A stretch of DNA of 64,000 nt from Aneurinibacillus sp. (GTDB taxonomy: Bacteria; Bacillota; UBA5301; DYFA01): positions 70,924 to 134,923 of the forward strand of contig DYFA01000045.1 in the NCBI GenBank assembly GCA_020725425.1, in the 5' to 3' direction. The position numbers and the translations under genes were made by a program. Under the pieces are notes generated by a model, which was not told where the DNA came from, did no database searches, and was given only the letters and a program-made list of their open reading frames with translations. This document shows, one piece after another, positions 3,480 through 62,247 of this stretch (position 1 is its first letter; each line of letters begins with the position of its first letter).

Positions 3480-3492
3480 CTTCAAGCTGGAG

Positions 3493-3525: not shown

Positions 3526-3564
3526 ACCACAATATGCCGGGCACGGAGGGTCGCGGTCTTCCTT

Positions 3565-25873: not shown

Positions 25874-25901
25874 GCTTCTTCCTCCTTTGCGAGTCTCAAG
25901 G

Positions 25902-26321
25902 TTAGAACGGGACGTCGTCGTCCACGTCGATGTCCGCGAGGTCCTCCGGGGCGCTGCCCGGGGGCTGTGTCCGGCCGGCTCCCGCCGACCGCTCGCCCTC
26001 CTTCGGCCAGTCGAGGAACTGCACGTTCTCCGCCACGACCTCGGCGGCCTTGCGCTTCGTCCCGTCCTGGGCGTCGTAGGAGCGGATCTGGAGCCGGCCC
26101 TCGACCGCCACCATCCGGCCCTTGCCGAGGTGGTTGGCGCACAGCTCCCCGAGTTTCTCCCAGACGACGATGTCGATGAAGTCGGTCTCCCGCTCCGCCT
26201 GCCCGCCGCGGGGCCGGCGATCCACCGCCAGGGTGAAGCGGGTCACGGCCTTGCCGCTCTGCGTGTACCGGAGGGCGGGATCGGCCGTCAGCCTACCGAT
26301 GAGAATGATCCGGTTGAGCAC
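25902..26321 (-). CDS. ssb: Single-stranded DNA-binding protein
   Basis: GTG start preceded by GGGAGGGAGG. OB fold '[32 protein letters not shown]'. Acidic tail '[10 protein letters not shown]'. Confidence 0.9.
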
Positions 26322-26341
26322 TGGGCCTCCCTCCCTCGTGG

Positions 26342-26629
26342 TTACTCGTCCGTCCGGACAAGCAGGTGCCGGATGACTTCGTCGGTGATCTTGAGCACGC
26401 GCTCGAGCTCGGTCGCGGCGTTGCTCTCGCTCTGAAAGTCGATCACCACGTAGAAGCCTTCGGTGTGGCCGTCGATCTCGTAGGCCAGCTTTCGCTTGCC
26501 CCACTTGTCGGTCTTGACAATCTCCCCGCCGTTTCCGGTGATCAGCTCCTGGAACTTGGTGATGAGAGCTTCAAGCGGCTCTTCCTCCAGGTTGGGGTTT
26601 AGAACGACCACTACTTCGTACGGGCGCAC
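26342..26629 (-). CDS. rpsF: 30S ribosomal protein S6
   Basis: 'MRPYEVVVVLNPNLEEE...KTDKWGKRKLAYEI'. Confidence 0.95.
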   Translation of the reverse strand: MRPYEVVVVLNPNLEEEPLEALITKFQELITGNGGEIVKTDKWGKRKLAYEIDGHTEGFYVVIDFQSESNAATELERVLKITDEVIRHLLVRTDE

Positions 26630-26808
26630 CGCGCTTCACCTCCTCCCTTTGGACTTGCGGCCCCGCCGGGGGTGAACGGCGGAGCAGGGGGTTGGCCTGC
26701 GTGTGGCGCGCTGGGCGCCACGTACCAAGTTTGGTATGGTCGCAGGACTTTTTAATTATACCAGAGGGGGTTCCGGGCTACAAGCGATACTTGCCGCGAT
26801 GGACGATG

Positions 26809-27789
26809 CTAGGCCACCCGCTCGACGGAGACCTCATTCAGGAACCGCGCGACCTCCGACAAGTCCACTTCACCAGCGCAGGGCTGAAGGGCGGCGCTGG
26901 CGGCGGCCGCTGTGCCCAGGCGCAATGCTTCGAGCACCACGGATTCCGCTGCCTCCCTCACGAGGTCCTGGGGGGACCGGTCGAACACCACGGCACACCC
27001 GGCCACCAGGGCGTCGCCGCAACCGACGGTGTTCACGGGGGACAACCGTGGCGGGCGGACTGACCAGGCACCTTTCTCGGTGACCGCCACGAGACCGGCT
27101 GCTCCGAGGGAGACTACAACCAGGGAGAGGCCCCTTTCCACCCAGCGCCGGCTGACCCCGACAATTCGACGCACATCCTCGCCGGCCCCGTAATCTTGTT
27201 TTACCTCGAGGTCGCCCAGTTCTTCTTCGTTGGGCTTGATGAGGTACGGGCCGGCTTCGAGGCCTTTGGCCAAGGGAGCGCCACTGGTGTCGAGGATGGT
27301 CAGCGCCCCCGCTCCTTTAGCGGCTGTGACCAGGTCCCCGTAGAATCCCGCGGGAAGGCCCGACGGCAGGCTGCCGGAGAAGACGATCACCCGGCTCCGT
27401 TCCGCCAGGTGCTTGACCTTGTCCAGCATCAATCCGGCTTCGCGCGGAGAGATGTCCGGACTCGGCTCGCGCAGTTCCGTCTGGTTTCCGGCGGCCCGGT
27501 CCACCAGTACCAAGGTGGTACGGGATTCGCCGCCGACACGCACGAAGTCGGTAGCCAGGCCGAGCCTCGCCAGCTCCTCCTCGATCCAGCGACCGGCGTT
27601 CCCGCCGGTAAAACCGCTGGCCAGGGCTTCGGCTCCGAGGGTCTTGACCACCCGGGCGACGTTGATCCCCTTCCCACCGGGGCGGAGGAGCAGCGAGTCG
27701 ACGCGGTTGGCCCGCCCCACAGCAAAGCCGGAGACGAAGTAGGTCTTGTCGATTGCAGCGTTGAGCGTGACGGTGGTTATCATGTGCAC
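26809..27789 (-). CDS. PfkB-family 1-phosphofructokinase / tagatose-6-phosphate kinase
   Basis: 'MITTVTLNAAIDKTYFV' FruK/LacC-type N-terminus. PfkB signature 2 'DTVGCGDALVAG'. Confidence 0.8.
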   Translation of the reverse strand: MHMITTVTLNAAIDKTYFVSGFAVGRANRVDSLLLRPGGKGINVARVVKTLGAEALASGFTGGNAGRWIEEELARLGLATDFVRVGGESRTTLVLVDRAAGNQTELREPSPDISPREAGLMLDKVKHLAERSRVIVFSGSLPSGLPAGFYGDLVTAAKGAGALTILDTSGAPLAKGLEAGPYLIKPNEEELGDLEVKQDYGAGEDVRRIVGVSRRWVERGLSLVVVSLGAAGLVAVTEKGAWSVRPPRLSPVNTVGCGDALVAGCAVVFDRSPQDLVREAAESVVLEALRLGTAAAASAALQPCAGEVDLSEVARFLNEVSVERVA

Positions 27790-28646
27790 TGTTCCCTGGC
27801 GGCCGCGCGCCCCGCTGCTCCCACAAGGACGATCTTCTCGAAGACCGTCTCTTCCACCGCCTGCCGCCCGGCTCCCAGGTACTTCCGGGGGTCGAACTCC
27901 TCCGGATGCGCCGTGAGGAAGGCCCGGATGGCCGCAGTGAAGGGGATTTTCAATTCGGTGGAAAGGTTGACCTTCCGTATTCCCAGCTCCACGGCCCGTC
28001 GGACGCTCCCCTCGGGCACTCCCGAGGCCCCATGCATCACGAGCGGCACCGCCACCCGCTCCCGAATGGCGGCAAGGCGTTCGAAGTCCAACTTCGGCTC
28101 GCCCTGGTACACCCCATGGGCGGTCCCGATCGCCACCGCCAGGGCGTCCACCCCTGTCTCTTCGACAAACCTGGCCGCTTCGTGGGGATCGGTAAAGCCG
28201 CCCTCCCCGGAGAGGTCGTCCTCCATGCCGCCGATACGACCGAGTTCGGCCTCGACCGAGACCCCGGCGCCGTGGGCGACCTCGACCACTTTTCGGACCA
28301 GAGCGGCGTTCTCAGCGTAGGGGAGGCGGGAGCCGTCGATCATCACCGAGGTGAAACCGTGGCGGAGGCACTGCACGACCACCTCGAAGCTGGTACCGTG
28401 ATCGAGGTGGATGGCTGCCGGAACCCGGAGATCCTCCGCCAGAGTCCGCAGCAGCGCGGCCAGCGGCCTGATCCCGGCGTACTTGATGGTCCCCTGGTTC
28501 ACCTGAAAGATCACCGGGGCTTGGGCGCGTTCAGCCGCCGCGGCGACGGCCTGGGCGATCTCCATCCCGTGGACGTTGAAGGCGCCTACGGCATATCCTC
28601 CGGCCCGGGCGTCCGCCAGAAGCTCCTTAAGCGTCACAAGACTCAT
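27780..28646 (-). CDS. Class II tagatose-/fructose-1,6-bisphosphate aldolase (GatY/KbaY/FbaA family)
   Basis: 'GGYAVGAFNVHGMEI...PVIFQVNQGTIKY...AAIHLDHG...'. Confidence 0.8.
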   Translation of the reverse strand: MSLVTLKELLADARAGGYAVGAFNVHGMEIAQAVAAAAERAQAPVIFQVNQGTIKYAGIRPLAALLRTLAEDLRVPAAIHLDHGTSFEVVVQCLRHGFTSVMIDGSRLPYAENAALVRKVVEVAHGAGVSVEAELGRIGGMEDDLSGEGGFTDPHEAARFVEETGVDALAVAIGTAHGVYQGEPKLDFERLAAIRERVAVPLVMHGASGVPEGSVRRAVELGIRKVNLSTELKIPFTAAIRAFLTAHPEEFDPRKYLGAGRQAVEETVFEKIVLVGAAGRAAAREQCT

Positions 28647-50948: not shown

Positions 50949-52094
50949 CTATGCGCCGGGTGCGGCCGGCTGCTTGGGCGGCTTGCAGGTGCGGGCGGGG
51001 ACGAACGGCGTCCGCACCACCTTGGCCGGCACCGCCTTCCCCCGGATCTCGACCCCGATCTCCTGGCCCTCCGCCGCCAGATCAGCCCGTAGATACCCCA
51101 GCCCGATGTTCCGGCCCAGGGTCGGAGAGAAGGACCCGCTCGTGACCTCCCCCGCCGCCGCCCCATCCGGCGCCTTGAGCCCGTAGCCGTGGCGGGCCAC
51201 GCCGCCCTCCACGACGAACCCGGCGAGCTTCCGCTTGACCCCCTCCGCCTGCTGTTTGAGCAGCGCCTCCCGGCCGATGAACTCGCCCTTCTCCAGCTTC
51301 ACCACCCAGTTCAGGCCGGCCTCGAGGGGCGTCGTTTCGTCCGTCAGGTCGTTGCCGTAGAGCGGGTAAGCCATCTCCAGCCGGAGCGTGTCCCGAGCCC
51401 CCAGCCCGACCGGAACCAGGCCCAGCGGCTCACCCACGGCCAGGAGTCTCCGCCAGAGCCTCGGCGCCTCCGCCGCGGCCACGTACAGTTCGAACCCGTC
51501 CTCCCCGGTGTAGCCGGTCCGGGCGATGATCGCCGGAACCCCGTCGGCCTTCCCCTCCACGAAGCGGTAGTAGTAGAGTTCCCCCAGCGACTGGTCCGCC
51601 ACCTGGGCCACGATGTCGGCCGCCTTTGGCCCCTGCACCGCGATCAGCGCCGTCTCCAGGGTGGCATCCCTGAGCTCCACGCCGGGGCCCGGCCCCTGGG
51701 CGGCTACCCAGGTCCAGTCCTTGGTCACGTTGGCCCCGTTCACCACCACCATGAACCCCCTGGTCCGCCGGTAGACGACGATGTCGTCCACCACCCCGCC
51801 GGACGGGTTGAGGAGCATGGAGTAGTGGGCCTGCCCGACCGCCAGCCTTCCTAGGTCGTTGGTCGTCAGCCGCTGCAGGAAGGCCTCGGCTCCCGGCCCC
51901 TCGACAAAGAACTCGCCCATGTGGGAGAGATCGAAGAGACCGGCCTTCTCCCGGGTGGCCACGTGCTCGGCGACGATGCCTGTATACTGGACCGGCATCT
52001 CCCAACCGCCGAAAGCGGTGAAGCGGGCTCCCAGGGCCTGGTGTTCGGCATGGAGCGGGGTCCGTTTGAGGGCTTCACGGGTCTGGTTCTCCAC
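50949..52094 (-). CDS. gcvT: Aminomethyltransferase (glycine cleavage T protein)
   Basis: GTG start with RBS GGAGGGAG. '[29 protein letters not shown]'. Confidence 0.9.
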
Positions 52095-52132
52095 AGCTGT
52101 CTCCCTCCGTTCGGTACTGTTTCCCCAGTCCC

Positions 52133-52175
52133 CCAAAAAGAAAAGACAGGGGAACGCGCCCGTTCCTCTGTCCTT
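52133..52175 (-). terminator. Intrinsic terminator forming the riboswitch expression platform
   Basis: RNA 'GGAACG-GGCG-CGUUCC' hairpin followed by 'CCUGUCUUUUCUUUUU', about 40 nt upstream of the gcvT RBS. Confidence 0.5.
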
Positions 52176-52360
52176 CTCGCCTGAGAGATGCCCTGGGCGA
52201 CTTTCCCTCCGCCCGGGTTGCTCCTTCGGCGGGCTTTGCGCCGCCTCTCCAGAGTGCCGTCCTCCCGGGCTTCCGCTTGCCTGAGAGTTTCAGCGAGGGT
52301 GGCCGCTCCTCGCCTTGCTCCTTCGGCGCCCGACTCTCCGGGTCTCTCCCCCGGGACTCC
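52147..52360 (-). ncRNA. Tandem glycine riboswitch (two aptamers)
   Basis: Minus-strand RNA aptamer 1: 'GGGGGAGAG...GCGCCGAAGGAGCAAGG...ACUCUCAGGCAAG'. Aptamer 2: 'CUCUGGAGAG...GCCGAAGGAGCAACC...UCUCUCAGGCGAGAAGGACAGAG'. Both match the glycine riboswitch consensus and sit upstream of gcvT. Confidence 0.85.
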
Positions 52361-52585
52361 TCCGGCCGGTATGCGATTGTCGGTCGCTTCAAGTCTATTC
52401 GCCCGCTGCTATTATTGGGCACCGGCGGGGCCAATTCCTGCCAGACCCGGACCCCCTGGCGCGGGGAGACATATAATGGCGCCAGAACGGGCGATGGTCC
52501 CAGGGAAAGTGGGGTGGAAGGATGGAGACCCTTCTGCAGCGGCTGGTCAATCCGATTCTCAGGCGGTGCAACCGCACGGTCATCC

Positions 52586-53488
52586 TCATCTGGCGCCGCC
52601 ACCGGTAATCTCCTGCGCGAAGCCGGCGATCAGGCCGGCCACGTGCTCCGGCTGCTCCAGGGGGCTCAGGTGGCCGGCTTCCGCTATGTCTGCCCGCCGG
52701 GCGCCTGGCACCAGCTCCATCAGGTCCTGGGTCGCCTCGGCCGGCAGGGCCGGGTCCTCCTCGCCCCGCCCCACCAGGACCGGCCGGGCGATGCCCCTCA
52801 GCTCCTCCCGGAGGGCCACCAACTCCTCCTCCGGGGTGGTCCCCACCCCCTCGATCAGCTTGGTCAGCGTCCACACCGCCTCCGGCCGGCTGAAGGCCTT
52901 GGTACCTTCCTCCACCAACTCTTCCGGGATCTCTCCCCCCGGCCGCCAGAGCCGGCGCAGGATCCCCCGGAGCCCTCCCAGCTGCCCCAAGCGGAAGACC
53001 CCGGCCATGAACGACGGCCGGGCGGCGAAGAGCGTGATCCAGGGGAAGGGATGATAGGGCGAGGCGGTGGCGTCCAAAGCAGCTACCCCCGCGACCAGCT
53101 CCGGCCGACGCGCCGCCAGCCGCAAGGCCAGCAGCCCGCCCAGGTCGTGCCCGGCGACCACCCATCGCTCGGCCCCGGCCAGGTCCGCCAGCAGAGCCTC
53201 CACCAGGCCGGTCAGGCCGCTCAAGGTATACGAAAAGCCCAGAGGCTTGTCGCTCCCCCCCATCCCGACCAGGTCCACAGCGACCACCCGGTGTCCCCGC
53301 TCGCCCAGCAGAGGCGCCACCCCCCTCCAGGTCAAGGAGGCCAGCGGGACCCCGTGGAGCAGGAGGATGGGCCTGCCCCTCACCCCCTCCCCCTCTGGAC
53401 AAGCGGAAGGCGGCCCGGGCACCTCCCAGACCGCCATTCTGACTCCACCCAGCTCCGCAAATCTCCCGGCCTCGCCTCTTCCGGACAA
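52586..53488 (-). CDS. Alpha/beta-fold hydrolase
   Basis: 'ILLLHGVPLAS', nucleophile elbow 'GHDLGG', and a C-terminal His. Confidence 0.75.
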   Translation of the reverse strand: MSGRGEAGRFAELGGVRMAVWEVPGPPSACPEGEGVRGRPILLLHGVPLASLTWRGVAPLLGERGHRVVAVDLVGMGGSDKPLGFSYTLSGLTGLVEALLADLAGAERWVVAGHDLGGLLALRLAARRPELVAGVAALDATASPYHPFPWITLFAARPSFMAGVFRLGQLGGLRGILRRLWRPGGEIPEELVEEGTKAFSRPEAVWTLTKLIEGVGTTPEEELVALREELRGIARPVLVGRGEEDPALPAEATQDLMELVPGARRADIAEAGHLSPLEQPEHVAGLIAGFAQEITGGGAR

Positions 53489-53593
53489 GCGCCTCTCCTC
53501 CGTTCGTGCCTAGCGTTCGCCCGGAACTGTACCCGTACCCTAGGGTCCTTCCTCTGAAACAACGACCTGACTGCCCGAAAACAGAAGCGGCTC

Positions 53594-55852
53594 TCAGCCG
53601 GAGACACCTTCAGGTGCCGACGTCTCTAGCCTGCTGTCCTGGTCCGCCTCAGATTCTTCGGTGCTGCCACCCTCGGATACTGTCGTTTCTGTGACATGGC
53701 GGTGTACCGATGCGAATTGGTGCGCCACCCGTTCGTCGATGTGCCCTTTCCGATAGTTCTCAGCGCGAGGAGACTCTAGTGCTGACCCGTAGACCCTGCT
53801 CAGCGCCTTAAGCACCTGCCCCGGGTCCACAACTAATCTCAAAGAATCGTACTGCATACGTTCAAAATCTCCTGGGGCCGGACCTGAGTCGCTGCCCCAA
53901 GCAGTGCCCAGGTAGCACTTAAGCAGTTCTACTGCATTCCGAGGGTTTTCTTCCATTAGCTTAACTAGGTAATCGTTGCTTTCCTGCCGGGACCCCCAAT
54001 GCGCCCATACGTAGAGTAGTGCAGGGGCTTCTTTTCGGAAGTCTTCGTGAAGAACATGTGTTTGGCTGTACTCGCGAATTCGATTTGCCGCAACCCTGCC
54101 AATCTCGTCTTCCTGGCTCTTGGGTAAGGTTGCCTCCTCGCCTTCTTCAGACGCGCGGAGCCATCTGTAGAACTCGACAGCCAGTGACAACGGTTCTATA
54201 CTCTTGATCAGAAGCTTAGCCACATCGAATCGTTGCTGGACATCAGGAATGTTCTTGAGCAACGTCGCCAGCAGGGCAGCTGCTCTTGAGAAGGGACTCA
54301 GTGAAAGAAACGTTTCGGTATTCGGAAACTCCGGGCCAACCTCTCCGATGGCTAGGGCCAAGTTAACCGACGTCTCTGGAGGCAGTACCTCGGCCCTTCT
54401 GATGAACTTGGTCAAAACCCTGTCGGGCCCTGCGTCCTTGATTGCCGCACGAAGCTCGGGGAGACAAGCGCTTACTCTCTCCCTCCTCTCAAGTCCAGCT
54501 AGTAGGGAGAGTATCGCGTTGTCAGAGACATCGCCGAGGGGAATTGCATACGAGAAGTAGCGCCGGAAGTAGTCCTGGGAGGCGACTCGTTGTTCCTCTG
54601 CCCAATGCTTGTCCCAGTCGGATCCGTATGCCGCGTCGCCATATAGCCCGCACCCGGATCTCGGGAACAACACACCAAGCAATTCTCTTGCAGCATCCTT
54701 GTCCTCAAGCGGAAGCTCGGCTAGAGCTTCGTCAATGAGTTGTTGTTTTCTCTTTCGTTGGGACTCATCGCGAGAGCTCTTCAGAACAGCATCAGGATTG
54801 TCACGAACCATCGAGTAGAGCTTTGGATAGAAGACCCTCATGCCTTCAACTAGCATCAGATCTACGGGATTGACCTCACCTTTGAGAATCGGGAGGGCGA
54901 ACAGCAGTGCGTTGCCGTATCGTTTCGCCATCCTTGGTGTCCGAAGTCGGGGCCCGAAGGCTGTGATAAAGCGGCTGCTGAACGAGTTGGCATCTTCCTT
55001 CTTGAGTGTAATACCTGCAAGAGAAAGTGCTTCGTTTGCTGCCATAAAACATATTTCTACGAGAGACGCTTCGTCAGCGGGAGGAAGATGCAGCGGGACC
55101 TGCACGATCTTATCAAGGAAATCGTGGCCCGCTGCCTCGTCCGAGCCATACCGCTCCGCCAACGCTTTGGCCACCATGTCATCGTCGAACGCCAAGACGT
55201 AGCTTGTGTATGCAAAATCCGCGGTCAACTTTACGAGCTTAAAGATTGCGTGAATTTCTGTCTTATCCAGACGATCAATGTCGTCCACCAGCACTACCAC
55301 GCGCTTCTTTGAGCTCGTTAGAATGGTTTCAATCTTCTTCTTTAGGGCTTCTGCATCTATTGAAGTGAGTTTCTCTCCGACCTTTTGTAGACTGCTAGCA
55401 TAGGGGTTGACAGGGACCAGTAGCGCTGCATACTGCATGAGCAGTCCAAAGATCTCTGTGGTAGAAGTAAGACTCCTATGTAGCGCCGATGCCAAGGTCC
55501 TGAAGTAGGCTATTATGAGTTGGGTCTCGTCCTCGCATTGCCAAGGATTGAACCAAACGCAGATAATGTTGGCATGATGTTCAAGTTCATGCTTGATAAA
55601 ATGGAGGACTGTCGATTTCCCCTCTCCCCACGCGCCGTATATCCCTACTACCAGACTGCTGGAATCCTCAGATGCAGCTATCGTGTCCGCTACTCTCTTG
55701 GCAAAAGGCCACCGTCGAAAGCGATCTTGACTTGGATCCGTTATCGGAGAGTCCGCAAAGTAAGCACCTTGCGCTTCCGTTGACCTATTCTTGCGGGGTT
55801 GGTGGCCAGCTCGGCCCCTCCTGCTCTTGAATGGCCACATTCGCCGCATCAC
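53594..55852 (-). CDS. KAP-family P-loop NTPase
   Basis: 'DRFRRWPFAKRVADTI', Walker A 'GAWGEGKST', 'FNPWQ', and Walker B 'VVLVDDIDRL'. 752 aa. GC is markedly lower than the flanks. Confidence 0.8.
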   Translation of the reverse strand: MMRRMWPFKSRRGRAGHQPRKNRSTEAQGAYFADSPITDPSQDRFRRWPFAKRVADTIAASEDSSSLVVGIYGAWGEGKSTVLHFIKHELEHHANIICVWFNPWQCEDETQLIIAYFRTLASALHRSLTSTTEIFGLLMQYAALLVPVNPYASSLQKVGEKLTSIDAEALKKKIETILTSSKKRVVVLVDDIDRLDKTEIHAIFKLVKLTADFAYTSYVLAFDDDMVAKALAERYGSDEAAGHDFLDKIVQVPLHLPPADEASLVEICFMAANEALSLAGITLKKEDANSFSSRFITAFGPRLRTPRMAKRYGNALLFALPILKGEVNPVDLMLVEGMRVFYPKLYSMVRDNPDAVLKSSRDESQRKRKQQLIDEALAELPLEDKDAARELLGVLFPRSGCGLYGDAAYGSDWDKHWAEEQRVASQDYFRRYFSYAIPLGDVSDNAILSLLAGLERRERVSACLPELRAAIKDAGPDRVLTKFIRRAEVLPPETSVNLALAIGEVGPEFPNTETFLSLSPFSRAAALLATLLKNIPDVQQRFDVAKLLIKSIEPLSLAVEFYRWLRASEEGEEATLPKSQEDEIGRVAANRIREYSQTHVLHEDFRKEAPALLYVWAHWGSRQESNDYLVKLMEENPRNAVELLKCYLGTAWGSDSGPAPGDFERMQYDSLRLVVDPGQVLKALSRVYGSALESPRAENYRKGHIDERVAHQFASVHRHVTETTVSEGGSTEESEADQDSRLETSAPEGVSG

Positions 55853-55892
55853 GAGTTCTCTCCATCATTGGAATAGTATTCATGTTGGTCGA

Positions 55893-58800
55893 TCACCCGC
55901 ACTTCGAGTACCCGCAGCTGACGCAGACGACGCAGCCCGCCTCGTGGGTCAGCGTGCAGCCGCATTCAGGGCAGAGGTTCTTCTCGAGCGCGGCGTGGTA
56001 GCTGTCGCCGCTGGCCGCTACCTCCAGGGGCGCCCGGTGGGTCTCGCCGGTCGGCTCTTCGCAGCGGGGGTCGGCCCCGGGCGGCGGCTGCGGATCCGGC
56101 GCCAGCGGGATGGCGGTCGGCGCCTTCGGGACTCCGCCGCCGAAGGGGAGGCCGGGCTGGACGGCCCCGCCGGTCCGCTCGACGTACTTCTTGATCGCCT
56201 TGGCGATGGCGTCCGGGCAGGAGGTCACGTGAACCCCCGGGCGGCGCAGGCAGGCCGGGCAGCGGATGCCCCGCAACTGCTCGTAGATGGCGTCCACGGA
56301 GATCCCCGACCGCAGGGCGATCGAGATCAGGCGGCTGGTCGCTTCCGACTGGGAGGCGCATCCGCCCTCCCGGCCGGTGTTGGTGAAGACCTCGCAGACG
56401 CCGTACTCGTCGGCGTTGACGCTGACGTACAGGTTTCCGCAGCCGACCTGCACCTTCTCGGTGGTCCCGGCGGTCACCTGGGGCCGCGGGCGGGGCACGA
56501 TGGCCACGGGTGGGTGGACCGGACCCGAGCCGTCCACTTCCTTCGCCTTCGTCCCGGCGGTCAGCACCTGCTCCTCCCGGCTGCCGTCCCGGTAGACTGT
56601 CACCCCCTTACACCCCTTGGCGTACGCCAGGAGATACGCTTTGGCCACGTCCTCCCGGGTCGCCTCGTGGGGGAAGTTGATCGTCTTCGAGACGGCGTTG
56701 TCGGTGTACTTCTGGAACGCCGCTTGGATGGCGATGTGCCACTCCGGGGCGATCTGGTGCGCCGTGACGAAAAGCTGCCGGTAGCGCTCGGGCACCTCCT
56801 CGATGTCCTCGAGCGACCCCTTCTCGGCGATCCTCTCCATGAGCTGCGGGGTGTAGAACCCTTCCCGGCGGGCGATCTCCTCGAAGAGCGGGTTCACCTC
56901 GACCAGCCTCTGGTTGTCCAGGACGTTCCGGACGAAGCAGACCGCAAAGAGCGGCTCGATCCCCGAGGAGCAGCCGGCGATGATGCTGATCGTCCCCGTC
57001 GGGGCGATGGTGGTGGTGGTGGCGTTGCGGACTGGCCTGGCTCCGGGCTTGTCCAGGATACTCCCCTTGAAGTTGGGGAAGGGTCCCCGCTCTTCGGCCA
57101 AGTCCGCTGAGGCCTCCCAGGCCGTCTTCTGGATGAAGGACATGACCTCCTCGGCGATCTCGGCCGCCCGGTCGCTGTCGTAACGGACGCCGAGCTTGAT
57201 GAGCAGATCGGCGAAACCCATCACTCCGAGCCCGATCTTCCGGTTCGCCTTGACCATCTCGTCAATGATGGGCAGAGGGTACCGGCTGGCGTCGATCACG
57301 TCGTCCAGGAACCGCACCGCCAGCCTGACCACCTCGGCCAGTTTCTCGTAGTCGATCTCCGCCCGGTCCCCGACCTCCTCCACCATCTTGGCCAGGTTGA
57401 TCGAGCCGAGGTTACAGGCCTCGTAGGGCAGAAGGGGCTGCTCGCCGCAGTTGGAGACGACGATCCCGTTGGCGATGAAGGAGTGGGTCATTGGCTCGGT
57501 CAGGTCGAAGACCGGCTTCTCCCCGACGGGCACGACCGAGGCTACCCTGTCGGTGAAGCTGCGGGCGTAGAAGCCGCGCTTACGGCCACGGAGCTCGGCC
57601 ACCCGCTCAGCATACTTGTTGCCGAGGAACCCGATCTCGTCCAGGAACAGCTCTAGATCCTCCCGGCTCACCTGCAACTCGAAGAGGACCCCGTCACTCT
57701 CGTACCGCCGCTCCTCTCCGGCCACAGTCAGGTACCGGAAGGCCTGACGCGGGGTCCGGGATCGGTCATAGATCCGGCTCTTGACGCCTAGCGCCAGGAG
57801 GAGCCGCTGCACGTCCTGGAGCAGCAGGAGGGACTTGGCCGTCAGGCGGGCGTAGGCCGTCTGGTTCTTCCCGAGCGCCAGCGTCCCGTCGGCGGTGAAC
57901 AGGCCGCGCAAGAATCCGACCACCGCCTCTCGGGAAGCCGTGAAGAGGGCCTCCGGAACCCGCTTCTCCCGAGCCTCCCCAGGCACCACCCCGAGCTTCC
58001 GGAGGAACTCCACGAAGTAGCGGCTGTGGTAGGATAGGTGAAAGACCCCGTTCGCCCGCCGGATAGGCTTGACCTCGGTCCCGTACCACCGGTTGAGGAC
58101 CGGTGCCAGGCGCTCCATCGCCTCCCGGTCGTCGGCGGCGAAGGTGAACCCGACGCGGCAGTTCCGCTCGCCGTCCACGAGCCAGCCGTCGCCGACCAGC
58201 CATCCCAGCGCCTGCCCCAAGTCCTCGCTCCATTCGTGGGGGAAGGCATGGCGGTAGGTCCGCCCGTTCCGCCCCTGGACCTCCGCCTCCGGGACGAAGG
58301 GCAGGGCCGCCTTCTCCGGAAAACCGCTCTCGCCGGACTGGAGCAAGACGGAGTGGAAGCCCGGCTTAAGCTCACCCGCCCGGACCCAGCCCCGGGTTGT
58401 CATGATCTTGTGGTCCGGAGTGACTTCCAGGCTGTATCCGGCTTCGGTCGTCACCCGGACGACTGGCTTGACACCGCTGGCGAAGGCCCTTAGGACCGGA
58501 TGGAGCGTCACCCCGCCGGTGACCGCGCTGCTCCCGGCTGTACCGTTCTTGAGGCAGGTCAACGGAAGCACTCGGTCGTCCGTCGCCACGGCGACTTCTC
58601 TCCCGGCAGCTTCACGTACTAGCCGTTCCATGCGTATCAGCCCGTCGGCGGTGGAGACCAGAGCATCCCCGACTACGCACGGGTTGGTGCTCTCGATCTC
58701 CCCCACGGCCGGTGTCGGGTTGTCCCGGTTGATCCGGTCGAGGAAGATGATGCCCGGTTCCCCGTTCTTCCAGGCCCCCTCCACGATGAGGTCGAAGACC

Positions 58801-59495
58801 TCCCGGGCCCGGAGCTTCCGGACCACCCGGTTGTTGCGGGGGTTGACCAGCTCGTACTCCTCGTCTCTTTCCAGGGCCTCCATGAACTTGTCCGTGATCG
58901 CCACGGAGAGGTTGAAGTTGGTGAGGTCGCTGTTGTTCTCCTTGGCCGTGATGAACTCCAGGATGTCGGGGTGGTCCACCCGCAGGATGCCCATGTTGGC
59001 TCCCCGGCGCGTGCCCCCCTGTTTCACCGCGTCGGTGGCGGCGTTGAAAACCTTCATGAAGGAGATGGGCCCCGAGGCCACCCCGCCGGTCGTACGGACT
59101 TCGTCGTTCTTGGGCCGCAGGCGCGAGAAGCTGAACCCGGTTCCCCCGCCCGACTGATGGATCATGGCTGAGTACTTGATGGAGTCGAAGATCCCCGCCA
59201 TGGAGTCCTCGACGGGCAAGACGAAGCAGGCCGCCAGTTGCTGGAGGTCCCGCCCGGCGTTCATCAGGGTCGGCGAGTTGGGCATGAACTCAAGCCCGGT
59301 CATCAGGGCGTAGTAGCGGTCGGCCAGGGCCGCCACTTCCCCAGGGCTCTTGCCGTAGGCCGACTCGACCCCGGCGATGTTCTCCGCCACCCGGCGGAAC
59401 ATGTCCTCCGGGGCCTCGCAGGGTTTGCCGTCCTTCTTCTTCAGGTACCGCTTCTCGAGCACGCTCAGGGCGTTTCTCGAAAGGTTCAGACCCAT
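55893..59495 (-). CDS. nrdJ: Adenosylcobalamin-dependent class II ribonucleotide reductase, intein-containing precursor
   Basis: 'LEKRYLKK', 'FMPNSPTLMNAG', the catalytic 'NPC|GE' split by an insertion, and a C-terminal Cys-rich tail. 1200 aa, against about 790 aa without the insertion. Confidence 0.9.
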   Translation of the reverse strand: MGLNLSRNALSVLEKRYLKKKDGKPCEAPEDMFRRVAENIAGVESAYGKSPGEVAALADRYYALMTGLEFMPNSPTLMNAGRDLQQLAACFVLPVEDSMAGIFDSIKYSAMIHQSGGGTGFSFSRLRPKNDEVRTTGGVASGPISFMKVFNAATDAVKQGGTRRGANMGILRVDHPDILEFITAKENNSDLTNFNLSVAITDKFMEALERDEEYELVNPRNNRVVRKLRAREVFDLIVEGAWKNGEPGIIFLDRINRDNPTPAVGEIESTNPCVVGDALVSTADGLIRMERLVREAAGREVAVATDDRVLPLTCLKNGTAGSSAVTGGVTLHPVLRAFASGVKPVVRVTTEAGYSLEVTPDHKIMTTRGWVRAGELKPGFHSVLLQSGESGFPEKAALPFVPEAEVQGRNGRTYRHAFPHEWSEDLGQALGWLVGDGWLVDGERNCRVGFTFAADDREAMERLAPVLNRWYGTEVKPIRRANGVFHLSYHSRYFVEFLRKLGVVPGEAREKRVPEALFTASREAVVGFLRGLFTADGTLALGKNQTAYARLTAKSLLLLQDVQRLLLALGVKSRIYDRSRTPRQAFRYLTVAGEERRYESDGVLFELQVSREDLELFLDEIGFLGNKYAERVAELRGRKRGFYARSFTDRVASVVPVGEKPVFDLTEPMTHSFIANGIVVSNCGEQPLLPYEACNLGSINLAKMVEEVGDRAEIDYEKLAEVVRLAVRFLDDVIDASRYPLPIIDEMVKANRKIGLGVMGFADLLIKLGVRYDSDRAAEIAEEVMSFIQKTAWEASADLAEERGPFPNFKGSILDKPGARPVRNATTTTIAPTGTISIIAGCSSGIEPLFAVCFVRNVLDNQRLVEVNPLFEEIARREGFYTPQLMERIAEKGSLEDIEEVPERYRQLFVTAHQIAPEWHIAIQAAFQKYTDNAVSKTINFPHEATREDVAKAYLLAYAKGCKGVTVYRDGSREEQVLTAGTKAKEVDGSGPVHPPVAIVPRPRPQVTAGTTEKVQVGCGNLYVSVNADEYGVCEVFTNTGREGGCASQSEATSRLISIALRSGISVDAIYEQLRGIRCPACLRRPGVHVTSCPDAIAKAIKKYVERTGGAVQPGLPFGGGVPKAPTAIPLAPDPQPPPGADPRCEEPTGETHRAPLEVAASGDSYHAALEKNLCPECGCTLTHEAGCVVCVSCGYSKCG
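57450..58679 (-). mobile_element. Intein (410 aa) with LAGLIDADG homing-endonuclease domain inserted at the RNR thiyl-radical Cys site (coordinates +/-2 nt)
   Basis: Extein junctions: 'ESTNP|CVVGDALV...' (Cys1) and '...FIANGIVVSN|CGEQPLL' (terminal Asn, +1 Cys). LAGLIDADG motifs 'LGWLVGDGWLV' and 'VVGFLRGLFTADGTLA'. Confidence 0.8.
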
Positions 59496-59554
59496 CGCCG
59501 CTTTCCTCTCCCTCCGTGGACCCTACTGCGTCCAAGTACTATATCGCCCCATCC

Positions 59555-59602
59555 CACACTATATCTAGTGGGAACGCCGTGTTCATCATACTATATGTGG
59601 TG
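59555..59602. promoter_or_regulatory. Two tandem NrdR boxes (~32 bp centre-to-centre) upstream of nrdJ, plus a possible third half-site at ~59534-59549
   Basis: 'CACACTATATCTAGTG' and 'ATACTATATGTGGTGT' match the NrdR palindrome acaCwAtATaTwGtgt. They sit in the low-GC 5' leader of nrdJ. Confidence 0.6.
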
Positions 59603-59810
59603 TCCGCAGGTAAAACGGGAAAGCAGCGCTTTCTGTGCCGCCTGGCTGGTTCTTCGCCAACTGCGCCTCCTACAGGAGCGCGTTTGGGCGTTTGGCTTGT
59701 TTCCTTCCGGGCGCCCACCCTAGCTGCGGTTCAGTGTTTATCCCCTCCTTGTTCACACTCCCCTCTCCCTGGCCAAGCCGATGAGCAGAGGGCACCGGGA
59801 GTTATGCACA

Positions 59811-60752
59811 TTACCCACAGGTGCCTGTGGACAAACCGAAAGGTTGTTCGGTATTGGTACCGGCTTCCAGGCGCCTCTCCCACCGGCAGTACATCGCCAC
59901 GCGGCACTGCCCGGCGCAGAGGGCGGTCTGGCCCTGCCGGCACAACTGGTCCCCCTGGTGGAAGAGGGGCAGAGGGTCGCCGCCGAAGTAGCGCTCGATG
60001 GCCCGGAGGCAATCTCCCGTGGGGATATCCCGCAAGAAGGCGGCCTCCCGGCCGACGAAACCCAGCCGCCAGAGCGCCAGCTTGACCGGGGTATCCACCG
60101 CGATGCAGGCCTGAGGTTCGAGGTCGGGCCAGAGCCCGTGGCGGCGCATCTCCCGGCAGAGCCAGTAGGCCCGCGACTTGAGGTGGGGAAACTCGCGCAG
60201 CGCCTTCAAGGTCGCCTGCCAGGGCTGCCCCGGCTGGTGGACGTGGCGGAGATCCCCGCCGTACCGCTGGGTGACCCGTTCAGCCGCCGCGAACAGCGCC
60301 CCCGCCTTCTGCACCTTGTTGGCCAGGGCCCGGTAGTGCTCCTGGAGCACGGCCAGGACGGCCTGCTCGTCCTCCCGGTCCTGCGCCGCCAGGCGTTCCA
60401 GCCCGGTCAGCCCGCGCTCCCGCAGGGCGTTGAAGGTAGCGATGGCCGTCGCCTCCTGCACCTTGGCTCCGGCCAGAATGGCCAACAGCAGCAACCCGAA
60501 GCGGTCCTGCCGCTCCGTCAGATCCAGTTGAACCTCCTCGCGGCCCCGCCGGAGGATGAAGCGGGGCCCCTCGGTCCTCCACTCCCGCCAGGCCTCGCGC
60601 AAGGCCCGGGCGGCCGCCTCCAGCGACGGTTCCGCTCCCCGCGTCACCCGACGCCACATAAAACAGCCAGCTCCTTTCTGCTTCCCGGCTGGTGCCCGGC
60701 GGCCAAAAGTCGCTGGCGAAGTCATCGTACCATTTGCTGTAAGGAGAGTCAA
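59811..60752 (-). CDS. HhH-GPD superfamily (endonuclease III-like) protein with C-terminal [4Fe-4S]-type Cys cluster; start uncertain
   Basis: 'IAVDTPVKLALWRL' aligns with the EndoIII 'IAVDTHIFRV' catalytic Asp region. C-terminal 'C-x6-C-x3-C-x5-C' is near the EndoIII C-x6-C-x2-C-x5-C pattern. Confidence 0.4.
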   Translation of the reverse strand: MTLLTANGTMTSPATFGRRAPAGKQKGAGCFMWRRVTRGAEPSLEAAARALREAWREWRTEGPRFILRRGREEVQLDLTERQDRFGLLLLAILAGAKVQEATAIATFNALRERGLTGLERLAAQDREDEQAVLAVLQEHYRALANKVQKAGALFAAAERVTQRYGGDLRHVHQPGQPWQATLKALREFPHLKSRAYWLCREMRRHGLWPDLEPQACIAVDTPVKLALWRLGFVGREAAFLRDIPTGDCLRAIERYFGGDPLPLFHQGDQLCRQGQTALCAGQCRVAMYCRWERRLEAGTNTEQPFGLSTGTCG

Positions 60753-60780
60753 GAGGTGGAGGGAATCCCGCCGGTTCCGG

Positions 60781-62247
60781 TCAACCCGCCACTCCGGTCA
60801 GCCAGGCCAGGGCCGCGGCCAGGAGGGCGCCGGCCAGAGTGCCGGCCAGATTGACCAGGTCGTTGTCGACCCACGGCTTGCCCCGCCGCAAGAGCGTCGC
60901 TGTCCCGCACCCGTGGCGGGGGGTTTCGGCGGCCACGGCACAGACGGGGCAGTAATAGCCGGCCTGCAGCGTCGCCCCGAGCAGGCTGTCCACCAGGGCG
61001 CCCCCGAAGCCGCCCACCCACGGAGCAGCCACCCGCCAGGCCGTCGCCGGCCCCGGTGGCCCCACGAGGAGGGCGCCGACCAGGGAGATGAGCAACGCCC
61101 CGGCGGCGGACGCCCAGAGGCCCAGCGCAGTCACCCCGCCGGAGGTCCCCGGGGGGCACTGCACTCCCCCCAGGATGAGCCGGGGGGGCTTGGCGGACAG
61201 GACGCCCACCTCCGTCGCCCACGTGTCCGCCGCGGCTTCCGCCACCGCGCCGAGGTGCGCCAGGAAAAGCAACCCGGCCCGGTCGGGGAAGAACAGGCTG
61301 AGCGCTGCCGCCACCGCCGCCACCAGCCCGTTGGCCAGCACCTGGCCGGCGTCCCGCGCCCCCTCCTTGCCCTTGACCGCCCGGACCGCCTCCTTCGCCC
61401 CCGCCTTCCACCGCGAGAGGGCGCTGCTGGTGAGGAAGAAGACCACCAGGGGGATCGCCCAGCCCCACCCGCCGAAGGCCAGGACGAACGTGCCGATGCC
61501 AGCCGCGGCCGCCGCCCCGTCCGGACTCAGCGCCCGCCACCGGAGACCCAGCACCGCCAGAGCCCCGGAGAGGGCCACCCCCCAGAGCAGGCGCACCAGG
61601 AGCGGGCTGGCCGCGCCGGTGTGCGAGAGCAGAAAAAGCGACCCGGCCAGAGTGACCGGCACCGTGAAGTGGCCGAGGTCGGAGGGGGTCACGAGCCGAA
61701 CCAGGAGCCCCACCAGGCTGAGCAGGACAGCCAGCAGCACCCCTTGTCGGACCGGGAGTTCGGAGAGGTAGACCAGGGCCAAGAGAAGCGAGGCGAACCC
61801 CGTGACCAGGGCGAACAAGTCGCCCTCCAGGGTTCCCTGCCGGCCGAAGAGGCTGTACCGGCTCGACCCCCACAGCGCCTCGCCCACCTCGCCGCCGAGC
61901 ATCAGGCCCGTTCCGGCCAGAAGCCCCACGGCGGCGGCGTAGCGGTACTCGGGCGGCCAGAAGACCGGCAAGAGCAGGACGTAGGCGCCCAGGAACCAGA
62001 GCGTGGCCCGGGCGGCGGGCGCGGCGGCCCGTCTCGAGCGGCGGCCCACCCGGAAGAAGGCAAAGTAGAGGAGGAGCAGGAGCAGGAACGGCACCAGCGC
62101 CGCCGTCCACCAGCGGGAGAAGAAGGTGAGACTGGGCACGACGAACGCCGCCAGAAAAAGCCGGGGCAGGCTCCGCCCCAAGTTGCCCGGCCAGCGCAGA
62201 TGCCGCCGCAACTCCTCGGCGAACCACAGCGCCATGACGAAATACAC
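60781..62247 (-). CDS. Polytopic membrane protein with C-terminal DUF92/TMEM19-like domain
   Basis: 'LVDSLLGATLQAGYYC' resembles the DUF92 signature. At least ten TM helices. The alternative same-strand ORF 60749..62227 is judged non-coding. Confidence 0.55.
   Translation of the reverse strand: MYFVMALWFAEELRRHLRWPGNLGRSLPRLFLAAFVVPSLTFFSRWWTAALVPFLLLLLLYFAFFRVGRRSRRAAAPAARATLWFLGAYVLLLPVFWPPEYRYAAAVGLLAGTGLMLGGEVGEALWGSSRYSLFGRQGTLEGDLFALVTGFASLLLALVYLSELPVRQGVLLAVLLSLVGLLVRLVTPSDLGHFTVPVTLAGSLFLLSHTGAASPLLVRLLWGVALSGALAVLGLRWRALSPDGAAAAAGIGTFVLAFGGWGWAIPLVVFFLTSSALSRWKAGAKEAVRAVKGKEGARDAGQVLANGLVAAVAAALSLFFPDRAGLLFLAHLGAVAEAAADTWATEVGVLSAKPPRLILGGVQCPPGTSGGVTALGLWASAAGALLISLVGALLVGPPGPATAWRVAAPWVGGFGGALVDSLLGATLQAGYYCPVCAVAAETPRHGCGTATLLRRGKPWVDNDLVNLAGTLAGALLAAALAWLTGVAG

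What the first reader, a model, noticed from the sequence alone, without database searches (positions are those of the whole stretch)
53594..55892. Low-GC island encoding a solitary KAP-family P-loop NTPase directly downstream of nrdJ
GC drops sharply, to roughly 50% against about 70% in the flanks, across a single 752-aa gene with KAP NTPase hallmarks (GAWGEGKS, FNPW, VVLVDDID). It has its own RBS 40 nt after the nrdJ stop. KAP NTPases are a poorly characterised STAND-like family that recurs in mobile or defence-type contexts. A horizontally acquired single-gene cassette placed next to an intein-bearing RNR is a good candidate for an uncharacterised abortive-infection or defence function.
Basis: partly seen in the sequence, partly recalled or inferred. 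Interest (0 to 1): 0.6.

Follow-up and report, generated by a model that had tools for sequence, protein, structure and literature searches.

The report
Acquired PifA-like KAP NTPase defence gene
A single foreign gene sits just after the ribonucleotide reductase gene of a high-GC bacterium; it is a distant relative of PifA, the F-plasmid protein that aborts phage T7 infection, so it is a probable anti-phage gene of a known kind and not a new type of system.

Summary
A 751/752-aa ORF lies on the minus strand (53594-55852), 40 nt after the stop of an intein-bearing nrdJ. It has 53% GC against 68% for the rest of the window, GC3 of 0.57 against 0.82-0.94, and a CAI z-score of -7.6. The GAWGEGKS, FNPW and VVLVDDID motifs are all present.

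The gene is a lineage-specific insertion. Three related genomes have nrdJ followed directly by the same alpha/beta hydrolase (empty site). A fourth carries an RHH+PIN (VapBC-like) toxin-antitoxin pair at the same point. No integrase, target-site duplication or tRNA flanks the insert.

The protein is not unclassifiable. It matches PADLOC's PifA model over nearly its whole length (E 8e-71). A profile of its homologues aligns with F-plasmid PifA from end to end (hhalign 99.8%). Like PifA, it has no transmembrane helices. The family is large: 3,567 cluster representatives at E<=1e-30. Three homologues examined sit beside defence-type or recombinase genes, with no shared partner gene.

KAP NTPases with unannotated C-terminal regions were shown experimentally to block phage in 2026. 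My verdict is a new, distant member of a known defence family. Its position next to the intein appears coincidental. The variable site after nrdJ and likely read-through from an NrdR-box promoter are the only mildly unusual points.

The parts
53594..55852 (-). PifA-like KAP P-loop NTPase ORF (752 aa from GTG 55852; 751 aa from ATG 55849; stop TGA 53594-53596)
   Evidence: ORF list and translation. Pfam KAP_NTPase E 7e-49. PADLOC PifA E 8e-71, protein 32-687 against profile 6-699/720. 100% identical to public protein P0001.
55853..55892 (-). 40-nt AT-rich leader between the nrdJ stop and the KAP start, with RBS GGAGAG at 55858-55863. It is part of the imported DNA. No promoter-like or terminator-like site was found on this strand.
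   Evidence: Sequence. Promoter/terminator scan. Homology to relatives stops exactly at the nrdJ stop.
55613..55636 (-). Walker A / P-loop, GAWGEGKS (residues 72-79 in 751-aa numbering; K78)
   Evidence: G72, W74, G75, G77 and K78 are invariant in the 47-sequence family alignment A3.
55541..55552 (-). FNPW motif (residues 100-103), a KAP-family signature after strand 2
   Evidence: F100, P102 and W103 are invariant and N101 is nearly invariant in A3.
55274..55297 (-). Walker B, VVLVDDID (residues 185-192), followed by R193
   Evidence: D189, D190, D192 and R193 are invariant in A3.
55310..55528 (-). Insert between Walker A and Walker B (about residues 108-180). It contains the hydrophobic stretch IFGLLMQYAALLVPV and has low model confidence. 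Many KAP NTPases carry transmembrane helices at this position; none is present here.
   Evidence: AF2 pLDDT is below 50 for residues 133-163. Maximum Kyte-Doolittle 19-residue mean is 1.4 for the whole protein and 1.32 for this stretch; F PifA reaches 1.27. This is the least conserved part of the N-terminal half.
53666..54802 (-). C-terminal all-helical domain (residues 350-728) with no Pfam family. It is the more variable half and is presumed to be the sensor and/or effector. It contains the conserved block LFPR...YGSDW..W..EQR..S..YF.RYFSY.IP.GDVSD.
   Evidence: AF2 model, pLDDT mostly 85-97. No Pfam hit at E<=5. Identity to homologues is 31-41% here against 57-70% in the NTPase core. Invariant F395, P396, F432, Y434, D443. 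C-terminus-only HMM against the F PifA C-terminus scores 12.7 bits; the best of 200 shuffles scores 1.8.
53534..55892 (.). Lineage-specific inserted segment. The proximal edge is exact: the base after the nrdJ stop. The distal edge lies between about 53534 and 53560, where similarity to the relatives' intergenic sequence ('AGAGGAA...TCCGGGC') resumes.
   Evidence: blastn breakpoints: window 55893 = L004 8590; window 53525 = L004 9550; window 53533 = L077 1375. Junction alignments.
53588..53600 (-). Weak terminator-like hairpin overlapping the KAP stop (CGGCTGAGAGCCG, then CTTCTGTTTT). Function doubtful.
   Evidence: Consensus scan. Folding energy is no better than shuffles: -9.5 kcal/mol, z = -0.08.
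55893..59495 (-). Context: nrdJ (B12-dependent ribonucleotide reductase, 1200 aa) with a LAGLIDADG intein, immediately upstream on the same strand
   Evidence: Pfam and NCBIfam. Intein GC3 is 0.89, which is host-like.
59556..59603 (.). Context: two NrdR-box-like palindromes 32 bp apart upstream of nrdJ. They mark the likely regulated promoter from which KAP may be read through.
   Evidence: These are the only two matches to ACACWATATATWGTGT (up to 3 mismatches) in the window; 0.03 expected by chance. The consensus was recalled from the NrdR regulon literature (own knowledge).
52586..53488 (-). Context: alpha/beta hydrolase, the gene that directly follows nrdJ in relatives with an empty site
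   Evidence: Pfam. Synteny in L003, L004, L076 and L077.

Best explanation
The segment is a recently acquired single-gene cassette of about 2.35 kb. It probably came from a donor with about 50% GC and inserted immediately after the nrdJ stop codon of a high-GC organism (a MAG labelled Bacillota). It encodes a soluble protein of the PifA branch of the KAP P-loop NTPases.

Shown here:
- The gene is foreign and is absent from the same site in relatives.
- Walker A (K78) and Walker B (D189/D190) are intact.
- The protein has an N-terminal KAP NTPase followed by a helical domain of about 470 aa, and it aligns with F-plasmid PifA from end to end.
- It has no partner gene.

Inferred:
- It acts as a one-protein anti-phage sensor and effector.
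- The more variable helical C-terminal half recognises one or more phage proteins, as PifA responds to T7 gp1.2 and capsid gp10.
- NTP binding or hydrolysis by the KAP domain converts that recognition into a toxic or blocking activity.
- By analogy with PifA, the outcome would be membrane depolarisation and nucleotide leakage, stopping infection at the cost of the cell (abortive infection). The hydrophobic, poorly ordered insert between Walker A and B is a candidate membrane-contact element.
- Expression is most simply explained by read-through from the NrdR-box promoter of nrdJ, using the cassette's own ribosome-binding site.
For: Foreign origin: GC 53% vs 68%, GC3 0.57 vs 0.82-0.94, CAI z = -7.6. 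The site is empty in L003, L076 and L077 and holds a different cargo in L004. The closest homologues are only 48-50% identical and lie in 53-55% GC contigs.

Family: Pfam KAP_NTPase at 167 bits. PADLOC PifA at E 8e-71, covering 96% of the profile; QatA and PDC-S20 match far more weakly. hhalign of the 47-sequence family profile against F PifA gives probability 99.8%, E 1e-27, 624 aligned columns, query 32-692 against target 13-708. A C-terminus-only HMM still finds the F PifA C-terminus at 12.7 bits, against at most 1.8 for 200 shuffles. Neither protein has a transmembrane segment, in line with the literature statement that PifA lacks TMHs (PMC13001434).

Integrity: the catalytic residues are invariant across the family, and the AF2 model is confident (pLDDT 79.8, pTM 0.68).

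Defence context of homologues: P0002 lies next to TCAD9, HNH and DUF5615 genes. P0005 lies next to an SNF2/NOV_C helicase and a DUF1156 methylase. P0011 lies next to a large serine recombinase. They share no partner gene.

Experimental precedent: KAP NTPases fused to unannotated C-terminal regions protect against phage and need Walker B and the C-terminal region (PMC13552941). PifA causes T7 abortive infection with membrane depolarisation (PMC13001434; PMC8594841).

Conservation pattern: the NTPase core is 57-70% identical to homologues and the C-terminal half 31-41%. This fits a conserved engine with a diversifying recognition module.

Expression: there is no promoter-like or terminator-like site in the 40-nt gap on the coding strand, and NrdR boxes lie upstream of nrdJ.
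Against: - No function was tested. The organism is an uncultured MAG and no phage is known for it.
- Identity to F PifA is only 21-24%. By BLASTP only the N-terminal 350 residues align, and the C-terminal similarity is weak (12.7 bits). Mechanistic transfer from PifA is therefore an analogy.
- The PifA mechanism itself is unresolved, and its role as a dedicated defence has been questioned (PMC8594841; PMC13552941).
- One tested KAP defence protein (EF_KAP) was reported not to act by abortive infection.
- There is no solved structure or fold match for the C-terminal domain, so the effector activity is unknown.
- The gene is alone next to housekeeping genes, not in a defence island. PADLOC found nothing in the other ORFs scanned from the window, which included the three immediate downstream neighbours.
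- Co-transcription with nrdJ is inferred only from the absence of signals.
Confidence: 0.65

Rival explanations
1. It is an anti-phage KAP NTPase, but it does not work like PifA. The C-terminal domain blocks phage replication directly, without killing the cell or permeabilising the membrane, as reported for the Enterococcus KAP protein EF_KAP.
For: EF_KAP protected equally at MOI 1 and MOI 10 and was judged not to be abortive infection. Different C-terminal regions gave different phage-defence profiles (PMC13552941). Similarity of our C-terminal domain to that of PifA is weak. No fold match suggests a pore or a nuclease.
Against: The best model match in PADLOC is PifA, over the full length. 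The protein aligns with F PifA from end to end. EF_KAP has transmembrane helices, which this protein lacks.
Confidence: 0.2
2. It is a KAP NTPase whose main role is not phage defence. Possible roles include controlling assembly of a membrane-associated complex, or acting against plasmids or other mobile elements. Any phage exclusion would then be a side effect.
For: The narrow target range of F PifA has led authors to suggest that defence may not be its primary function (PMC8594841; PMC13552941). Here the gene lies among housekeeping genes and may be transcribed with nrdJ.
Against: It is absent from the same site in four relatives, so it cannot be a core function of this locus. Its distribution is patchy across phyla, and its homologues sit beside defence or recombinase genes. 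Several KAP proteins have been shown to block phage.
Confidence: 0.1
3. It is an inert passenger: a recently transferred gene that is not expressed or not functional in this host and is on its way to being lost.
For: Codon usage is extremely poor for this host (CAI 0.32). No promoter of its own was detected. Only one species-level lineage carries it.
Against: The 2.26-kb ORF is intact and every family-invariant residue is retained. An RBS is correctly spaced from the start. The sequence is identical in three assemblies.
Confidence: 0.04
4. It is an assembly or binning artefact: a low-GC fragment from another organism joined into a high-GC contig.
For: The composition changes abruptly in a metagenome-assembled genome.
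Against: Both junctions are identical in the 145-kb source contig, in a 59.5-kb contig of GCA_030019095.1 and in an independently assembled 8.4-kb Logan contig. The insert begins exactly at a stop codon and ends in recognisable ancestral intergenic sequence.
Confidence: 0.01

Closest known systems
PifA of the E. coli F plasmid (Pif, 'phage inhibition by F'; PADLOC model PDLC02361), a single-protein abortive-infection system against T7
   Same: Both have an N-terminal KAP P-loop NTPase, are a similar size (751 vs 741 aa) and lack transmembrane helices. They align from end to end at profile level. The PADLOC PifA HMM is covered from position 6 to 699 of 720. Both act, or would act, as a single gene.
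   Different: Identity is only 21-24%, and BLASTP aligns only the NTPase half. The score on the PifA HMM is 238 bits, against 963 for F PifA itself. There is no pifC repressor and no pif operon. The gene is a chromosomal insertion after nrdJ in a high-GC MAG labelled Bacillota, not a plasmid gene. Its triggers and effector activity are unknown.
KAP NTPase antiphage proteins found next to small serine recombinases (EF_KAP and three gut-metagenome KAP proteins; PMC13552941)
   Same: All have a KAP NTPase fused to a C-terminal region with no known domain or structural match, and all act as single genes. In EF_KAP, defence depends on Walker B and on the C-terminal region.
   Different: EF_KAP has transmembrane helices and was reported not to be abortive infection. 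No serine recombinase lies next to the gene here.
QatA of the QatABCD system, and the PADLOC candidate PDC-S20 (other KAP-type defence NTPases)
   Same: They share the KAP NTPase core. Local matches to QatA are about 70-80 bits and to PDC-S20 about 30-45 bits.
   Different: The NCBIfam QatA equivalog scores 79.7 bits against a cutoff of 600. The matches are confined to short stretches of the NTPase core. There are no QatB, QatC or QatD neighbours.
Variable sites flanked by core genes that hold alternative defence or toxin-antitoxin cargo ('defence hotspots')
   Same: One chromosomal point, between nrdJ and the hydrolase, is empty in three relatives. It holds a VapBC-like pair in one relative and the KAP gene here.
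   Different: Each cargo is very small (one gene or one TA pair). No integrase, tRNA or direct repeats are present. Only five genomes were available, so recurrence is weakly sampled.

Membership tests
KAP family P-loop NTPase (Pfam PF07693) | Match to the family HMM above the curated threshold | tested here: met
   167.1 bits against a gathering cutoff of 20; residues 49-316 against profile 3-286/293.
KAP family P-loop NTPase (Pfam PF07693) | Intact Walker A (GxxGxGK[ST]) and Walker B (hhhhDDxD) motifs | tested here: met
   GAWGEGKS and VVLVDDID are present. K78 and D189/D190/D192 are invariant in 47 homologues.
KAP family P-loop NTPase (Pfam PF07693) | Transmembrane helices associated with the NTPase domain (typical of many members, but known to be absent in PifA) | tested here: not met
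   The maximum 19-residue Kyte-Doolittle mean is 1.4, so there is no TM-grade segment. The same is true of F PifA (1.27), in line with PMC13001434.
PifA (F-plasmid Pif abortive infection; PADLOC PDLC02361) | Significant, near full-length match to the PifA profile, better than to any other defence model | tested here: met
   E 8e-71, 237.6 bits, protein 32-687 against profile 6-699/720. The next best is QatA at 70.6 bits. For calibration, F PifA scores 963 bits and four homologues of this protein score 255-290 bits. PADLOC's own cutoffs were not available to me.
PifA (F-plasmid Pif abortive infection; PADLOC PDLC02361) | Homology to F PifA that extends beyond the NTPase into the C-terminal domain | tested here: met
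   hhalign gives probability 99.8%, 624 columns, query 32-692 against target 13-708. The C-terminal half alone scores 12.7 bits, against at most 1.8 for 200 shuffled controls. This is weak but above background. BLASTP alone does not detect it.
PifA (F-plasmid Pif abortive infection; PADLOC PDLC02361) | pifC-pifA operon organisation with the PifC repressor | tested here: not met
   The insert holds a single ORF. The neighbours are nrdJ and an alpha/beta hydrolase. In F, pifC directly precedes pifA.
PifA (F-plasmid Pif abortive infection; PADLOC PDLC02361) | Phage exclusion triggered by specific phage proteins, with membrane depolarisation and nucleotide leakage | not testable with these tools
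   This needs phage challenge and physiology. Literature description in PMC13001434 and PMC8594841.
Qat system (QatABCD) | QatA equivalog score and the presence of QatB/C/D | tested here: not met
   NF041923 scores 79.7 bits against a cutoff of 600. No partner genes lie in or next to the insert.
STAND NTPases (Avs / NACHT / NB-ARC-type defence) | STAND-type NTPase domain above the family threshold | tested here: not met
   There are only sub-threshold hits: nSTAND_NTPase5 at 24.2 bits against 34, and AAA_16 at 30.2 bits against 32.6. Foldseek against the PDB gives no match with E<0.04.
Horizontally acquired genomic islet | Atypical composition and codon usage relative to the host | tested here: met
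   GC 0.532 vs 0.683, GC3 0.57 vs 0.82-0.94, CAI z = -7.6, and the lowest-GC stretch of its length in the window.
Horizontally acquired genomic islet | Absence from the orthologous site in related genomes | tested here: met
   L003, L076 and L077 have nrdJ followed by 31-76 nt and then the hydrolase. L004 has RHH+PIN there instead.
Horizontally acquired genomic islet | Mobility signatures (integrase or transposase, tRNA target, flanking direct repeats) | tested here: not met
   There are no flanking repeats beyond chance-level short matches. There is no mobility gene in the insert or next to it.

The most novel reading that the evidence does not exclude
The position immediately 3' of the nrdJ stop codon may be a lineage-specific capture site. 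Promoter-less defence or toxin-antitoxin cassettes would be inserted there in the sense orientation and so come under the NrdR-box promoter of the ribonucleotide reductase gene. A PifA-like sensor would then be expressed in step with dNTP demand or replication stress, which is a state that phage infection produces. This would be a regulatory coupling not described for PifA-type systems.
Probability: 0.12. Interest if true: 0.5.

Novelty: new member of a known kind. Interest (0 to 1): 0.3.

Why it matters
The finding adds a distant PifA-type KAP NTPase, from a high-GC MAG labelled Bacillota, to a family whose founding member has been known since the 1970s-80s but whose mechanism and structure are still unsolved. 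Sequence, profile and Foldseek searches of the PDB found no relative. The family is large: 3,567 cluster representatives at E<=1e-30. Its C-terminal domain has no Pfam family. A soluble, confidently modelled member could therefore be a useful target for structural work.

The locus also gives a clean natural example of cargo turnover at one chromosomal point. The site is empty in three relatives, holds VapBC in one, and holds the PifA-like gene here. None of this changes current understanding. Standard defence-annotation tools would already label the gene.

Tried and rejected
- **Mobile-element boundaries.** A repeat search across 52800-56600 found only short, chance-level direct and inverted repeats and no target-site duplication.
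- **Terminator after KAP.** The consensus scan flagged a hairpin at 53588-53600, but its folding energy is no better than shuffles (z = -0.08). I do not rely on it.
- **More relatives.** A metagenome-contig scan with the hydrolase returned only hits of 40% identity or less and no orthologous loci.
- **Distribution of the C-terminal domain.** The search for homologous proteins with residues 350-728 returned nothing, not even the protein itself. I take this to be a word-prefilter failure and not biology.
- **Domain assignment for the C-terminus.** Pfam on the C-terminal domain at E<=5 gave no family.
- **Link to the intein or to RNR.** I rejected this. The intein has host-like codon usage (GC3 0.89). 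L003 has the intein and an empty site. tblastn with the KAP protein found no hit in 57 nrdJ loci totalling 708 kb.
- **Qat, STAND or PDC-S20 membership.** I rejected all three on scores and on missing partner genes.
- **Other RNA elements.** Rfam at gathering threshold across 52000-61000 found only the glycine riboswitch of the gcv operon.
Full report
**1. The observation**

The ORF at 53594..55852 encodes 752 aa from a GTG. From the adjacent ATG at 55849 it encodes 751 aa, which is the form held in public databases as P0001, 'MAG: P-loop NTPase fold protein [Bacillota bacterium]'. The three quoted motifs are present: GAWGEGKS, FNPW and VVLVDDID.

The upstream gene on the same strand, 55893..59495, is a 1200-aa B12-dependent ribonucleotide reductase carrying Intein_splicing and LAGLIDADG_3 domains. 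Forty nucleotides separate its stop from the KAP start. A GGAGAG ribosome-binding site lies 5-8 nt before the start codon.

Composition:
- GC drops to 0.46-0.56 in 400-nt windows, against about 0.68-0.75 on either side.
- The insert as a whole is 53.2% GC and the rest of the window is 68.3%. It is the lowest-GC stretch of its length in the 64 kb.
- GC3 is 0.57, against 0.82-0.94 for host ORFs.
- CAI is 0.322, against 0.705 +/- 0.050 for 32 host ORFs, z = -7.6.

**2. The gene is an insertion**

I used the C-terminal extein of nrdJ to search one genome per species, and the downstream hydrolase to search the protein collection. This recovered four related loci plus two further assemblies of the same organism.

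- The same-organism assemblies are L075 (GCA_030019095.1) and L002 (a Logan contig). They are 100% identical to the window across both junctions. This argues against an assembly chimera.
- In L004, which is 81-87% identical at the DNA level, similarity to the window stops exactly at the nrdJ stop codon. It resumes at window 53525, just upstream of the alpha/beta hydrolase. The 959 bp in between encode a ribbon-helix-helix protein and a PIN-domain protein, a VapBC-like toxin-antitoxin pair.
- In L003, L076 and L077 nrdJ is followed after only 31-76 nt by the hydrolase region.

The site is therefore empty in three relatives, holds a TA pair in one, and holds the KAP gene here. The ancestral intergenic motif 'AGAGGAA...TCCGGGC' reappears on the far side of both inserts. 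This places the distal edge of the KAP insert at about 53534-53560.

No integrase, tRNA or convincing flanking repeat is present. How the cassette arrived is unknown; homologous replacement through the conserved flanks is the simplest guess, and it is only inference. The nearest homologues are just 48-50% identical and lie in 53-55% GC contigs. The donor is unidentified, but a source of about 50% GC fits.

**3. What the protein is**

Pfam assigns residues 49-316 to KAP_NTPase, at 167 bits against a cutoff of 20. PADLOC's best model by far is PifA: E 8e-71, with protein residues 32-687 aligned to profile positions 6-699 of 720. QatA and PDC-S20 match only short stretches of the NTPase core. NCBIfam's QatA equivalog scores 79.7 bits against a cutoff of 600.

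I fetched F-plasmid PifA itself (L001) for direct comparison:
- BLASTP aligns only the N-terminal 350 residues, at 24% identity and E 2e-22.
- A profile of 47 homologues (A3) aligns with F PifA from end to end: probability 99.8%, E 1e-27, 624 columns, query 32-692 against target 13-708.
- To check that the C-terminal part of that alignment is not simply carried by the NTPase, I built an HMM from the C-terminal half alone. It finds the C-terminal half of F PifA at 12.7 bits. The best of 200 shuffled controls scores 1.8 bits. This is weak but real.
- For calibration, F PifA scores 963 bits on the PADLOC model, this protein scores 238, and four of its homologues score 255-290.

The protein is therefore a distant PifA-family member, not an orthologue.

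Neither protein has a transmembrane-grade hydrophobic segment. This agrees with the literature statement that PifA lacks TMHs, unlike many KAP proteins (PMC13001434).

**4. Anatomy**

The AlphaFold2 model has pLDDT 79.8 and pTM 0.68. It shows the following parts:
- An alpha/beta P-loop core spans about residues 47-252.
- A poorly ordered, partly hydrophobic insert lies between Walker A and Walker B (residues 133-163, pLDDT below 50; IFGLLMQYAALLVPV).
- A helical lid follows the core.
- A confidently modelled all-helical region runs to residue 728.
- The disordered tails are basic at the N-terminus and acidic at the C-terminus.

The C-terminal 380 residues have no Pfam family even at E<=5. Sequence or profile searches found no relative with a solved structure. 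Foldseek against the PDB gave nothing below E 0.04.

Across the family the NTPase core is 57-70% identical to this protein and the C-terminal half 31-41%. One well-conserved C-terminal block stands out: LFPR...YGSDW..W..EQR..S..YF.RYFSY.IP.GDVSD, with invariant F395, P396, F432, Y434 and D443. Every family-invariant residue is retained, including K78 and D189/D190, so the gene looks functional.

**5. Family size and contexts**

An exhaustive HMMER scan of 1.84 billion cluster representatives found 19,878 proteins at E<=1e-3 and 3,567 at E<=1e-30. At least 150 are near full-length relatives at E<1e-120. Named hits span Deltaproteobacteria, Bacteroidota, Cyanobacteria, Paenibacillus, Brevibacillus and Candidatus Kaiserbacteria. 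On plasmids, hits occur in Xanthomonas, Bacillus cereus group, Hymenobacter and haloarchaea.

The genomic contexts of three homologues differ and share no partner gene:
- P0002 lies next to TCAD9, HNH and DUF5615 genes.
- P0005 lies next to an SNF2/NOV_C helicase and a DUF1156 methyltransferase.
- P0011 lies next to a large serine recombinase.

This is the distribution expected of a mobile, single-gene defence determinant.

**6. How it most likely works**

Shown: this is a foreign, intact, solitary PifA-family KAP NTPase.

From the literature: PifA aborts T7 infection in response to gp1.2 and the capsid protein gp10, with membrane depolarisation and nucleotide leakage (PMC13001434; PMC8594841). 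Several KAP NTPases fused to unannotated C-terminal regions protect bacteria from phage. For the Enterococcus protein EF_KAP, protection needs Walker B and the C-terminal region (PMC13552941).

Inferred for this gene:
- The helical C-terminal half recognises a phage protein.
- The NTPase converts that recognition into an active state.
- The outcome is arrest of infection, most likely abortive and membrane-directed. The hydrophobic insert between Walker A and B is a possible membrane-contact element.

I put about 0.65 on the defence function overall. I put roughly half of that on the specifically PifA-like abortive mechanism, because EF_KAP was reported not to be abortive and the C-terminal similarity to PifA is weak.

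**7. Expression**

The coding strand has no promoter-like or terminator-like site in the 40-nt gap. Upstream of nrdJ lie two NrdR-box-like palindromes 32 bp apart. They are the only matches to the consensus in the whole window, with 0.03 expected by chance. The consensus was recalled from the NrdR regulon literature. Read-through from the nrdJ promoter is therefore the simplest account, but it is untested. The hairpin at the KAP stop that the scan flagged folds no better than shuffled sequence.

**8.

The neighbouring intein appears to be coincidental:
- The intein is compositionally host-like (GC3 0.89).
- L003 has the full intein with an empty site, whereas L004 has a shorter nrdJ with a cargo.
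- None of 57 nrdJ loci from other genomes contains a KAP homologue.

'STAND-like' is loose. Only sub-threshold STAND and AAA hits are seen.

**9. Verdict**

This is a new, distant member of a known defence family (PifA-type KAP NTPase). It was acquired horizontally at a small variable site after nrdJ. It is not a new kind of system. I score interest at about 0.3.

The most novel reading still open is that this site captures promoter-less cassettes into the NrdR-controlled RNR operon, which would couple defence expression to nucleotide stress. I give that about 0.12.

Noticed in passing
window 59556-59571 and 59588-59603: Two NrdR-box-like palindromes lie 32 bp apart, just upstream of nrdJ. They are the only matches to ACACWATATATWGTGT (up to 3 mismatches) in the 64 kb, with 0.03 expected by chance. 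They imply NrdR control of nrdJ and, by read-through, possibly of the KAP gene.
   Followed up: partly
L004 8591-9549 (JBLNCL010000022.1): A close relative carries an RHH antitoxin-like gene (8712-9059) and a PIN-domain gene (9056-9484) exactly where the window carries the KAP gene. This VapBC-like pair has mildly reduced GC (0.63 vs 0.68; GC3 0.75 vs 0.86).
   Followed up: yes
window 52258-52361 (-): A glycine riboswitch aptamer (Rfam RF00504, 51 bits) lies upstream of the gcvT-gcvH-gcvP operon. This is ordinary regulation of the glycine cleavage system.
   Followed up: no
window 5386-7998 (+): A GspD-type secretin (Secretin, STN, Secretin_N and N0 domains) is encoded in a MAG labelled Bacillota. 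This suggests a diderm, high-GC Bacillota lineage or a wrong taxonomic label.
   Followed up: no
L003 and L004 (PRJNA950955 MAGs): These loci are 75-87% identical in DNA to the window over several kb. Yet they are labelled Chitinophagales and Betaproteobacteria, whereas the window's organism is labelled Bacillota. At least some of these taxonomic labels must be wrong.
   Followed up: no
window 57454-58640 (nrdJ intein region); L004 5633-8590; L076 5498-7924: The nrdJ intein is polymorphic among relatives. The window and L003 have a full LAGLIDADG intein (1200 aa). L004 has a 985-aa nrdJ that lacks the endonuclease part. L076 has an 808-aa nrdJ with no intein. Intein state does not track the downstream cargo.
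   Followed up: partly
window 53437-53533 (-): The hydrolase probably starts at TTG 53488, behind a GGAGGAG RBS. The 17 codons before the internal ATG are conserved in frame in L004 and L077. Public gene calls of 265 and 283 aa therefore look N-terminally truncated.
   Followed up: partly
window 1257-4680 and 24129-28646: Several ORFs have moderately lower GC3 (0.74-0.81) and CAI (0.47-0.63) than the rest of the window. One is a 740-aa protein with a CarboxypepD_reg-like domain. They are much less extreme than the KAP gene, and the three I scanned against PADLOC gave no hit.
   Followed up: partly
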